Shown: positions 7,811 through 9,680 of the stretch, piece after piece
How positions within the stretch are numbered: position 1 is the first letter of the stretch
Layout: each line of letters starts with the position of its first letter
Sequence record: OP795442
Origin: Escherichia phage A7_1
DNA length: 64,000 bases
Strand: one strand, 5' to 3'
Notes under the pieces: model-generated
Told to the model about the DNA's origin: nothing
Database searches by the model: none
What the model saw: the letters and a program-made list of their open reading frames with translations, nothing else
Program-made: the position numbers and the translations under genes

Positions 7811-9680
7811 ATCCATCGGCGTGACTCCCCCAACTCTATTAATCCCTTCCCCATTTGGATCATCATATCTTACCCTATCTAATCATCAATCCAATCACCC
7901 TTTGGAATCTCTCTCCCAAAAATCTAAACTAATCTGATAGCTTACCACAACATAACACACAAAGAAAGAACTATTTTGCCCACAAAGAAAGGCAGTTTTA
8001 AAGAGATACCATTGCCAGAGTATGGAGGTGGCGCGACCGTAGGGAGCGACACTATAAAACGAGTATACCCCTCCTACCGCTATGCGGTCATCGGTGATAA
8101 CCGATATCGTTACACGCTATCTGTTCTCTTCGTTTCCTCGTTTTATAGTGTCTATCTGTAGTAATCTTTTATCCTTTGTCAACAGATTAATTGGCTTATA
8201 GACAATTATTTATAGTGATTTATTATGCATAGCTACTGATTATGTATGCAATAAGGATACAATAAGGATACAGTAGCGGTAGTGTAGCGACGCTGTAAAT
8301 ATCAACAAAGAGATGCCGTATTTGCCCACAGAATGAACAAGTAAGCAGGGCGGTACGCCCTTTTGCTAATGAGCGTAGCTCTTTTGCTAGGTAAAACTCT
8401 CTTCTCTCTTCTTTCCCAAAATAAATTTTTTCTTGCTTTTATTGCCAGAGTATGGCGGGGCGCTCAGGCTATTGATGGCCCTGATGGAGTCGCTCCTGTA
8501 CAGTTGGAATAGTTCACAGTTGGATAGTCACAAGTTGGTATTATTCTTCCCACTAGTTGGAACAGGCCAGAACTGGCAAGGCTTAGAGTCGCTCCACTTG
8601 TTGGACGGAAGAAGGGCGCTTGCAGTGCGTATAAGTTGTATTATGTTAAATGCAGATCGAAATCGGTATTCTAAATCAGATTCAGAAGTCAATAGAAATC
8701 TTTAACTTTATTGTTGGGGTAGCACAACATTTTTCTTGACAAGTCGAATCAAAGATGTATTGTGGATTGAAAATAAATGAAGATAATGCTTGACTTCTTG
8801 GATATTTTGAAAACATCGGACCCCCTCCCCCTCCCCCACGGTCGCCGTGCCTGGCAGCAGTGCCAACGCACTCAACAAAAAAGAGGCAAACATCCTGTTC
8901 TTATCGACGAAGACAACTGACCTCTACTGACGTGACTACAATTGGTGCGTCTCTTCAGGCCATCACCTTTGGGCACAGATATATTTGGGCAGGATAAATA
9001 ATGGACCCACCCCGTCATTAGTGACTCAAAATTTTGGCGGGAGGGTATAAAAACTAAAAAGTGGTCGTTTAAAATTTATGGCAGAGGTCCACTCAGGGTA
9101 GACATATACTAAAAATTCTAAACTACTGGAAATTATAAACTACAAGACGGGTGGATGTATAGGGAAGGGAGGTGACTCAGTGGGAAGTGGTATGTGGTAA
9201 GGGATTTATACACACGAGCCTCACTAGGCAAATGTGACTCTGTGGACAATAGGTATTACTCTGTGGACAATCGGAATAACATGAAGTAGGTCAGTCTCTT
9301 CAGAAAGTCTTGACCATTGTGGAAATATATGAAGTAATCCGTCAACCAAAATGGTTTACATTGTGGAAAGTAAACCAAAATGGTTTAGATGTGGGTAAAC
9401 AGATGTGACTCGACAGGCAAAGTGGTGTGTCTCAGTAGGCCAACAGTGGTTACTCTTTAGGCAAACTACCTGATTTTGGGATGAATCGATATTTGTGGGA
9501 ATCGTTGTACGATATTTGGGCATTATTGTAGGTGGAGTACAACAGTTTGGAAGGACTATATAGTTTGGTGAGCACAACATTTTTGGTACTGGTACAGTAT
9601 TTTTGGGGGAAGCATGGTGGCTTGGTTGCAATCCAGATGCAAAAAGCACCCACAATTGGGGTGCTCTCTGTAGTTCAGGA
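7811..9680. repeat. non-coding repeat-rich convergence zone
   Basis: No credible ORF; GTGACTC copies, palindromic 15-mer pair, ACTCTGTGGACAAT pair, TTGCCAGAGTATGG pair, C5TC5TC5 tract. Confidence 0.5.

What the first reader, a model, noticed from the sequence alone, without database searches (positions are those of the whole stretch)
9237..9387. Iteron-like direct repeats including a palindromic 15-mer pair
ACTCTGTGGACAAT occurs at 9237-9250 and 9258-9271 (period 21). AACCAAAATGGTTTA occurs at 9344-9358 and 9373-9387 (period 29), each followed by a TGTGG-type tail. The 15-mer is itself an inverted repeat (AAACC...GGTTT), which is typical of a dimeric DNA-binding site.
Basis: seen in the sequence. 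Interest (0 to 1): 0.5.

Follow-up and report, generated by a model that had tools for sequence, protein, structure and literature searches.

The report
Repeat arrays beside phage genome end
The two repeat pairs are real, but they belong to a larger set of oriented, evenly spaced short repeats beside the terminal repeat of an rV5-like E. coli phage genome, a layout known from phage T7, so they more likely mark the genome end for DNA packaging than a replication origin.

Summary
Both exact repeat pairs exist at the stated coordinates and are far beyond chance. They are not a self-contained unit. The window comes from a Septuagintavirus-like phage (Vequintavirinae). The finding lies in a 1.8-kb non-coding gap between two converging, terminator-capped gene blocks. 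That gap holds the inferred 462-bp direct terminal repeat (DTR, window 8390-8851). ACTCTGTGGACAAT is the core of a 16-bp oriented motif (about TGMCTCNGTRGGCAAA). The motif has 8 copies on the + strand to the right of the DTR, spaced about 21.4 bp, and 2-3 inverted copies to the left. There are none of comparable score elsewhere in the 64 kb. All five relatives show the same layout with 3-8 copies. Vequintavirus Gotham has the motif beside its annotated DTR, with one copy about 100 bp from the boundary as here. The palindromic pair lies in a 128-bp segment found in only three of six genomes, so it is dispensable for the genus. The best reading is a sub-terminal protein-binding array acting in end recognition or packaging, like T7 SRL/SRR; the function is inferred, not shown. 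An iteron origin is a weaker rival. Modest interest: a new member of a known kind.

The parts
7784..7805 (+). Terminator-like hairpin that closes the + strand gene block (last ORF ends at 7776)
   Evidence: 9-bp G+C stem, -18.8 kcal/mol, z = -3.0; hairpin also listed
7975..7990 (-). Inverted copy of the 16-bp motif M1 (TTTCTTTGTGGGCAAA), left of the DTR
   Evidence: Best non-seed hit in the whole window with a PWM built only from right-flank copies; present in all 6 genomes at -392 to -415
8048..8152 (.). Large inverted repeat (16-bp perfect stem, about 70-nt loop) inside a block that is 99-100% identical in six genomes
   Evidence: I1; z = -4.2; identity 0.99-1.0 at 8000-8100
8321..8336 (-). 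Inverted M1 copy (TCATTCTGTGGGCAAA), 54 bp from the DTR boundary
   Evidence: Second-best non-seed hit in the window; present in all 6 genomes at -37 to -69
8357..8389 (+). GCYCTTTTGCTA x2, period 21, abutting the left DTR boundary
   Evidence: D16
8390..8851 (.). Inferred 462-bp direct terminal repeat, present once in this window (concatemer/permuted form)
   Evidence: UPEC06 record ends are identical over 462 bp and map here at 97.4% without gaps. The block is 95-98% conserved with sharp drops at both edges. It shows weak collinear homology and the shared boundary ...CC|TGGCAGCA with Gotham's annotated 459-bp DTR
8948..8963 (+). M1 'anchor' copy CGTCTCTTCAGGCCAT; its CTCTTCAGG starts 100 nt after the DTR boundary
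   Evidence: CTCTTCAGG at +98 to +101 in the window, A5-4, A73 and Gotham
9173..9271 (+).
   Evidence: PWM scores 15.2-20.5 bits; spacings 44, 18 and 21 nt
9277..9404 (+). Lineage-specific 128-bp segment that splits the M1 array.
   Evidence: Present only in the window, A5-4 (99.3%) and W70 (100%). Replaced by ordinary M1 units in A73 and UPEC06, absent in LTH01. No E. coli match
9406..9465 (+). Three M1 copies (9406, 9428, 9450), spacing 22 nt; the last two are invariant in all six genomes
9470..9625 (+). Second repeat family M2: seven T-tract+GG units, (GAT)ATTTG(T)GGG / ACAACAKTTTTGG. GC skew +0.53; nearly invariant at 9450-9550
   Evidence: (D1, D4, D20)
9641..9664 (-). Intrinsic-terminator-like hairpin with U-run that closes the - strand gene block (last ORF stops at 9681)
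   Evidence: -24.2 kcal/mol, z = -4.6, followed by UUUUU

Best explanation
The flagged repeats are part of the sub-terminal repeat region of a linear phage genome that has a short direct terminal repeat. The array is in phase with two helical turns (about 21.4 bp). Two to three inverted copies lie on the other side. A second family, T-tract+GG (M2), follows the same mirror rule. The motif, its orientation and its position relative to the DTR boundary are kept across two genera, while copy number and the surrounding sequence are not. INFERRED: the phased copies place many sites for one sequence-specific protein on one face of the DNA. That protein acts on the genome end, most likely as the terminase recognition/loading complex that positions the cuts bounding the DTR. 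This would resemble lambda cosB or T3/T7 pacB, with T7 SRL/SRR as the closest anatomy. The palindromic AACCAAAATGGTTTA pair is a later, lineage-specific insertion into this array. It probably binds a different dimeric protein and is not needed for the core function.
For: Identity of the phage: five Vequintavirinae relatives at 84-96% identity, named Septuagintavirus in PMC11370258. DTR: the UPEC06 record ends are identical over 462 bp and map to window 8390-8851. That stretch is a 95-98% conserved block with sharp edges. DTRs of 459 bp and 514 bp are reported in the subfamily (PMC7471380, PMC9862379). Gotham's annotated DTR aligns collinearly and shares the boundary CC|TGGCAGCA. Motif clustering: all 11 PWM hits of 13 bits or more in the 64 kb lie in 7975-9465, on the + strand right of the DTR and the - strand left of it. 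The same pattern holds in all six genomes. A PWM built only from right-flank seeds ranks the two left-flank inverted copies first among all non-seed positions in the window. An unbiased 8-mer enrichment recovers the same families. Phasing: adjacent spacing is 21.4 +/- 1.4 nt (n = 23, not independent across genomes); phase coherence is 0.94 at 21.3 bp, even across the 150-nt gap. Cross-genus conservation without alignable DNA: Gotham's DTR-adjacent flank has CTCTTCA x4, TCAGGCA x3 and GATATTT x4. CTCTTCAGG lies at +98 to +101 from the boundary in the window, A5-4, A73 and Gotham. T7 shows the analogous layout, with CCTAAAG arrays directly flanking its 160-bp terminal repeat. In T3/T7 the packaging specificity maps to within 5% of the termini (PMC3276506).
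Against: No binding, cleavage or packaging data exist for any of these phages. The DTR is inferred from one GenBank record labelled 'partial genome' plus comparative evidence, not from reads of this phage. The part of the array holding the finding (9200-9400) is the least conserved stretch of the region (0.41-0.59 identity, 33-50% gapped). LTH01 manages with three array copies, so many copies are not essential. W70 lacks the +100 anchor copy in its usual form. Gotham shows no clear inverted copies on its other flank. The function of the T7 arrays used as the analogue is itself unresolved (my own knowledge). No terminase small subunit has been identified for this subfamily here.
Confidence: 0.5

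Rival explanations
1. Iteron-type replication origin: an initiator protein binds the phased 16-mers (and/or the palindromes) and DnaA binds the TGTGG/CCACA boxes. Together they melt a neighbouring AT-rich stretch.
For: Direct repeats at about 21-bp phasing, as in lambda ori and plasmid iterons. An AT-rich 17-bp tandem lies at 9107-9140 (D11). One perfect DnaA box (TTATACACA, 9206) and five one-mismatch boxes lie in 9206-9398, against about 0.5 expected. The noncoding flanks show an origin-like skew switch: -0.13 on the left, +0.22 on the right.
Against: No initiator-like gene adjoins the region; the ten neighbouring ORFs have no informative Pfam or PHROG match. The perfect DnaA box and three of the near-boxes lie in segments missing from most relatives. 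The motif is mirrored about the DTR and tied to its boundary. The region is the convergence point of two terminated gene blocks. A more origin-like region exists at 58.94-59.31 kb: AT-rich, divergent, with GATC palindromes and a 31-bp repeat.
Confidence: 0.15
2. Functionless or selfish repetitive DNA: units arise and spread by slippage or unequal recombination in a non-coding terminal spacer that tolerates change.
For: Copy number ranges from 3 to 8. Whole units are gained, lost or swapped between close relatives. The finding's own stretch is the most variable part of the region. W70 carries a 581-bp insertion at the boundary flanked by an 11-bp direct repeat.
Against: Motif sequence, strand orientation on each side of the DTR, and the +100 position are kept between genera whose flanks no longer align. 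The last two M1 copies and much of M2 are invariant, while nearby coding DNA is only 75-86% conserved.
Confidence: 0.12
3. Host-factor or DNA-entry control element: clustered DnaA-like boxes and palindromes near the end act on the incoming DNA or titrate a host protein, as proposed for the T5 injection-stop region.
For: DnaA-box-like cluster. Position near a physical end. Palindromes suit a dimeric binder.
Against: The cluster is not conserved in the genus. The conserved core of M1 (CTC...RGGCAA) is not a DnaA box, and many copies have TAGG or CAGG instead of TGTGG. Which end enters first is unknown. The T5 comparison rests on my memory only.
Confidence: 0.08
4. Transcription signals or a small RNA: the repeats are promoter/operator elements or are transcribed as a non-coding RNA.
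For: A sigma-70-like site inside the DTR (TTGACA-16-TATTGT, 8736-8763) points into the arrays. Weak promoter-like matches overlap the 14-mer pair.
Against: Promoter-like matches are not above the shuffle expectation (9 against 7.0 +/- 2.6). M1 is absent from the other 62 kb, so it is not a general phage promoter. No Rfam hit even at E <= 1. There is no gene downstream in either direction.
Confidence: 0.05

Closest known systems
Phage T7 sub-terminal repeat arrays (SRL/SRR) flanking the 160-bp terminal repeat
   Same: A short exact DTR with non-coding arrays of one short motif directly inboard of it on both sides. T7 has about 12 CCTAAAG-type units right of the left repeat and about 5 left of the right repeat, read directly. 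In T3/T7, sequences near the termini determine packaging specificity (PMC3276506).
   Different: The T7 unit is 7 bp at 12-15 bp spacing, has the same orientation on both sides, and also occurs inside the terminal repeat. Here the unit is 16 bp at about 21 bp, is mirrored across the DTR, and has no copy of 13 bits or more inside the DTR. T7 early promoters follow the array; here both neighbouring gene blocks end at the region. There is no sequence similarity.
Terminase recognition sites next to the cut site (lambda cosB R-sites; T3/T7 pacB; SPP1 pacL/pacR)
   Same: Several repeated sites at a fixed short distance from the end-generating cut (the CTCTTCAGG unit about 100 bp from the boundary in two genera). 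Helical phasing suits DNA wrapped on an oligomer.
   Different: No terminase small subunit or binding data are known for Vequintavirinae. Copy number is far more variable than in cosB. The details of the comparison families come from my own knowledge and were not tested here.
Iteron replication origins (lambda ori; P1, F and pSC101 plasmid origins)
   Same: Direct repeats of 16-19 bp at about 21-22 bp spacing, some with internal dyad symmetry, with DnaA-like boxes nearby.
   Different: There is no adjacent initiator gene, no conserved AT-rich unwinding element and no conserved DnaA boxes. The arrangement is mirrored around a terminal repeat.
Vequintavirus vB_EcoM_Gotham terminal region (MT682716, 459-bp DTR)
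   Same: Same architecture: converging gene blocks, about 1 kb of non-coding DNA on each side of the DTR, the boundary CC|TGGCAGCA, a CTCTTCAGG unit at +101, and a GATATTTGTGGG unit.
   Different: The flanks do not align by BLAST. M1 copies are fewer and irregular. The other flank carries a different array (TGTTTACA x5). The palindromic pair is absent.

Membership tests
Iteron-type replication origin | Three or more direct repeats of about 17-22 bp at helical-phase spacing | tested here: met
   8 + strand M1 copies; adjacent spacing 21.4 +/- 1.4 nt; coherence 0.94 at 21.3 bp
Iteron-type replication origin | Cognate initiator (Rep/O-type) gene adjacent to or overlapping the iterons | tested here: not met
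   The region lies between two terminators. Ten flanking ORFs have no informative Pfam or PHROG match. Caveat: all are of unknown function
Iteron-type replication origin | Conserved AT-rich unwinding element and DnaA boxes beside the iterons | tested here: not met
   The AT-rich tandem at 9107-9140 and the DnaA-like boxes lie in gapped, variable columns (identity 0.41-0.63)
Iteron-type replication origin | Supports autonomous or infection-dependent replication | not testable with these tools
   Needs a plasmid amplification assay or marker-frequency analysis
T7-type sub-terminal repeat arrays (SRL/SRR) | Linear genome with a short exact direct terminal repeat | tested here: met
   Indirect: 462-bp identical ends of the UPEC06 record, a conserved block with sharp edges, and homology and shared boundary with Gotham's annotated DTR. 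Not verified from sequencing reads
T7-type sub-terminal repeat arrays (SRL/SRR) | Non-coding arrays of one short motif directly inboard of the repeat on both sides | tested here: met
   T7 read for comparison
T7-type sub-terminal repeat arrays (SRL/SRR) | Same motif orientation on both sides, with copies inside the terminal repeat (as in T7) | tested here: not met
   Copies are + strand on the right and - strand on the left; none of 13 bits or more lies within 8390-8851
Terminase recognition site (cosB/pacB-like) | Repeated sites at a fixed distance from the end-generating cut, conserved with the cut site | tested here: inconclusive
   CTCTTCAGG at +98 to +101 in 4 genomes of 2 genera, but at +120 in UPEC06 and altered in W70
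Terminase recognition site (cosB/pacB-like) | Bound by the terminase small subunit and required for packaging | not testable with these tools
   Needs EMSA/footprinting and a plasmid-transduction or deletion assay
DnaA-box cluster (oriC/datA-like) | Several consensus TTWTNCACA boxes, conserved in relatives | tested here: not met
   One perfect and five one-mismatch boxes in 193 bp, but most lie in segments absent from A73, UPEC06 and LTH01
Phage or host promoter motif | Motif recurs upstream of genes across the genome | tested here: not met
   No M1 hit of 13 bits or more outside 7975-9465 in 64 kb. Sigma-70-like hits are not above shuffles

The most novel reading that the evidence does not exclude
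The mirrored, helically phased M1/M2 arrays on both sides of the DTR are the assembly platform of a so far unidentified end-recognition protein of Vequintavirinae (a terminase small subunit or an end-synapsis/protection factor). The platform measures off and defines both boundaries of the terminal repeat. This would be the first defined packaging signal for this large group of therapeutic coliphages. The 128-bp palindrome module would be a mobile accessory operator that has moved between phages.
Probability: 0.3. Interest if true: 0.5.

Novelty: new member of a known kind. Interest (0 to 1): 0.3.

Why it matters
Vequintavirinae (rV5-like phages) are widely isolated for phage therapy and biocontrol. 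The genus papers I read describe neither the ends nor any packaging signal. Placing the DTR at 8390-8851 and defining the flanking motif arrays has three uses. It gives a concrete, testable candidate for the terminase recognition region. It gives a rule for orienting and trimming assemblies of this genus; deposited records are permuted or carry join artefacts. It identifies a natural deletion series, with 3 to 8 copies and with or without the palindrome module, for dissecting what the arrays do. It does not reveal a new kind of element.

Tried and rejected
1. Exact-pattern scans for more relatives. The invariant 23-mer and 19-mer of the array gave nothing in IMG/VR or in JGI metagenome contigs. 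The 15-mer alone gave only single chance hits in unrelated contigs.
2. The look-up of encoding contigs for the adjacent 128/132-aa protein found nothing on record. tblastn found only the same five relatives.
3. Rfam found nothing in 7700-9700 even at E <= 1.
4. Promoter reading rejected: promoter-like hits are not above shuffles, and the motif is confined to the terminus.
5. DnaA-box reading: the cluster is real but not conserved.
6. Chi and KOPS. There is no Chi in the region. GGGNAGGG has 4 of its 6 window matches here, but two come from one C5TC5TC5 tract, so it was not pursued.
7. Host origin of the 128-bp segment: no match in 5,426 E. coli genomes.
8. The UPEC06 annotation 'DNA translocase FtsK' for the homologue of ORF 6644-6916 is not supported by Pfam or PHROGs.
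9. The M2 T-tracts are not in 21-bp phase (best period about 18 bp), so no curvature claim is made for them.
10. Literature searches for sub-terminal repeats in DTR phages returned nothing usable beyond DTR sizes and the T3/T7 packaging notes.

Full report
OBSERVATION. The sequence shows ACTCTGTGGACAAT at 9237-9250 and 9258-9271, and AACCAAAATGGTTTA at 9344-9358 and 9373-9387, exactly as reported. Neither has another copy with 2 or fewer mismatches in the 64-kb window. Exact 14-mers repeated 14-40 nt apart occur at only three places in the window. Dinucleotide shuffles give a mean of 0.045 such pairs. Each 15-mer lies in an imperfect 19-bp palindrome, GT(C/A)AACC-AAAAT-GGTTTA(C/G), followed by a TGTGG-type box. 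The two palindromes can also pair with each other.

WHERE IT IS. The window belongs to a myovirus of the Vequintavirinae. It is closest to Escherichia phages A5-4, A73, W70, LTH01 and UPEC06, at 84-96% identity. PMC11370258 names this clade Septuagintavirus. The finding lies in a 1.8-kb stretch without conserved ORFs. The + strand genes end at 7776 and are followed by a strong hairpin. The - strand genes, a 49-kb block of nucleotide-metabolism and replication genes, end at 9681 and are followed by a hairpin plus U-run. The region is therefore the meeting point of two terminated, converging gene blocks.

THE TERMINAL REPEAT. The UPEC06 record begins and ends with the same 462 bp at 100% identity. 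This stretch maps to window 8390-8851 at 97.4% identity without gaps. In a six-genome alignment, exactly this stretch is a 95-98% conserved block, and identity falls to 0.44-0.77 on both sides. Direct terminal repeats of 459 bp (Vequintavirus Gotham) and 514 bp (KPP-1) have been reported for the subfamily from coverage and PhageTerm (PMC7471380, PMC9862379). Gotham's record annotates its repeat. Synteny shows that the window runs in the reverse orientation to Gotham. The two repeats align collinearly, with conserved islands (for example GCGYATAA...GTATTATGTTAAA). Both are followed by TGGCAGCA directly after ...CC. I therefore place the DTR at 8390-8851, give or take a few nt. This is inferred, not read-verified, and I put my confidence at about 0.8. 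The finding then lies 385-540 bp inboard of one DTR copy.

WHAT THE REPEATS BELONG TO. The 14-mer is the core of a 16-bp motif, M1, with consensus about TGMCTCNGTRGGCAAA. A position weight matrix finds eight + strand copies right of the DTR, at 8948, 9173, 9217, 9235, 9256, 9406, 9428 and 9450. It finds two strong - strand copies left of it (7975, 8321) and one weak one (8175). All 11 hits of 13 bits or more in the 64 kb lie in 7975-9465. A matrix built only from seven right-flank copies still ranks the two left-flank inverted copies first among all other positions on both strands. An unbiased 8-mer enrichment recovers the same words. Adjacent copies are 21.4 +/- 1.4 nt apart; the 23 spacings are not independent, because the genomes are related. 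The window's copies are phase-coherent at 21.3 bp (R = 0.94), even across a 150-nt interruption. A second family, M2, consists of T-tract+GG units such as GATATTTGTGGG and ACAACATTTTTGG. It fills 9470-9625 with GC skew +0.53 and follows the same rule: + strand on the right, - strand on the left.

COMPARISON WITH RELATIVES. All five relatives have the same plan, but the number of right-flank M1 copies ranges from 3 (LTH01) to 8. In A73 the array is seven contiguous copies at 20-23 nt. The stretch holding the finding (9200-9400) is the least conserved part of the region, at 0.41-0.59 identity and 33-50% gaps. The last two M1 copies and the start of M2 (9450-9550) are about 95% conserved. The palindromic pair sits in a 128-bp segment (9277-9404) that interrupts the array. 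That segment is present only in the window, A5-4 (99.3%) and W70 (100%). A73 and UPEC06 carry ordinary M1 units in its place, and LTH01 has nothing there. It has no match in E. coli genomes. Across genera, Gotham's flank on the same side of its DTR does not align by BLAST. Even so, it is enriched in CTCTTCA (x4), TCAGGCA (x3) and GATATTT (x4). A CTCTTCAGG unit starts at +101 from Gotham's boundary, against +98 to +101 in the window, A5-4 and A73. It is at +120 in UPEC06, which has an extra copy of a short repeat, and it is altered in W70, which carries a 581-bp insertion at the boundary.

HOW IT MOST LIKELY WORKS. What is shown is an oriented, phased, terminus-linked array whose motif and placement are conserved while its copy number is not. 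From this I infer several steps. The copies are binding sites for one sequence-specific protein. The 21-bp phasing puts them on one face of the helix, which suits a wrapped nucleoprotein complex. The tie to the DTR boundary points to end recognition, most plausibly terminase loading and positioning of the cuts during packaging from concatemers. T7 has the same anatomy, with CCTAAAG arrays directly flanking its 160-bp repeat (read). In T3/T7, packaging specificity maps to within 5% of the termini (PMC3276506). The function of the T7 arrays is, to my knowledge, still unresolved, so the analogy supports the anatomy more than the mechanism. I give this reading a confidence of 0.5. The palindrome module is a lineage-specific addition, probably a site for a different dimeric protein, and viable relatives do without it.

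RIVALS.
- Iteron origin (0.15). In its favour are the phasing, an AT-rich tandem at 9107-9140, and one perfect plus five near-consensus DnaA boxes in 9206-9398. Against it, no initiator-like neighbour is recognisable. The DnaA-like boxes and the AT-rich tandem are not conserved. The mirror arrangement about the DTR does not fit an origin. A more origin-like AT-rich divergent region exists at 58.94-59.31 kb.
- Neutral or selfish repeats (0.12). These fit the variability, but not the cross-genus conservation of motif, orientation and position.
- Host-factor or DNA-entry control (0.08) and transcription signal or small RNA (0.05). Both have little support.

COMPARISON WITH KNOWN SYSTEMS AND NOVELTY. 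The feature works like, and is built like, the sub-terminal repeat arrays of short-DTR phages. It differs from T7 in unit length (16 against 7 bp), spacing (21 against 12-15 bp) and orientation (mirrored against direct), and in having no copies inside the repeat. It fails two defining tests for an iteron origin: an adjacent initiator, and conserved unwinding or DnaA elements. The genus papers I read do not describe termini or these repeats. This is therefore a new, undescribed member of a known kind, of modest interest (0.3). Its main practical value is to fix the genome ends of this genus and to give a testable pac candidate.

LIMITS. Only six genomes of the genus and one outgroup were available. 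Public-collection scans found no more. The DTR is not verified from reads. All functional statements are inferences.

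Noticed in passing
window 58940-59310: Divergent, very AT-rich intergenic region at the GC-skew minimum. 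It holds five AGATCT/GATC-containing palindromes (AAAAGATCTT type), an exact 19-mer repeated at a 31-nt period (TTATGAATGAAATGAATAA, 59118 and 59149), and a TTGACA-type promoter ahead of the + strand ORF at 59308. It is a better candidate than the finding for an origin and/or early promoter region.
   Followed up: partly
window 7950-8152: Non-coding block 99-100% identical in all six genomes. It holds a 16-bp perfect-stem inverted repeat (GACACTATAAAACGAG / CTCGTTTTATAGTGTC; DNA fold z = -4.2) about 240-340 bp from the left DTR boundary. It could be a hairpin-forming element used in end processing.
   Followed up: partly
window 8821-8838: C5-T-C5-T-C5 tract (G5AG5AG5 on the - strand) 14-31 nt inside the DTR from the TGGCAGCA boundary. 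It accounts for two of the six GGGNAGGG matches in the window.
   Followed up: no
window 8011-8028 and 8441-8458: The 18-mer ATTGCCAGAGTATGG(A/C)GG occurs once about 380 bp outside and once about 50 bp inside the left DTR boundary (94% identical). GCYCTTTTGCTA x2 (8357, 8378; period 21) abuts the boundary itself.
   Followed up: no
L005 (phage W70) 3540-4120: A 581-bp insertion directly at the DTR boundary, flanked by an 11-bp direct repeat TGGCAGCAGTA. It carries the annotated ORF W70_248 (483 nt) and looks like a mobile or recombined cassette landing at the end-cut site.
   Followed up: no
L004 (phage A73) 3078-3251: The first roughly 57-71 bp of the DTR appear twice, about 117 bp apart, exactly where the locus-tag numbering wraps (A73_1/A73_264). 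This is probably an untrimmed assembly overlap left when the record was re-permuted.
   Followed up: partly
L007 (phage Gotham) 460-590: The other flank of Gotham's DTR carries its own array: five TGTTTACA-type units at 15-20 nt spacing directly after the repeat. GGTTTACA also occurs in the window's palindrome module (9352-9359).
   Followed up: no
window 61323-63124: A cluster of six tRNA genes on the + strand: Met, Tyr, Gly, Gln and Pro by ARAGORN, plus one weaker Rfam hit at 61323-61401.
   Followed up: no
window 12536-16125: Consecutive - strand ORFs of 234, 415 and 410 aa. The two larger ones match PHROG 'regulator of chromosome condensation' (RCC1-like repeat) families.
   Followed up: no
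L006 1088-1357 (UPEC06) = window 6644-6916: UPEC06 annotates this 89-90 aa protein as 'DNA translocase FtsK'. Pfam and PHROGs give no support: only an unknown-function PHROG and a sub-threshold SAM-domain hit.
   Followed up: yes
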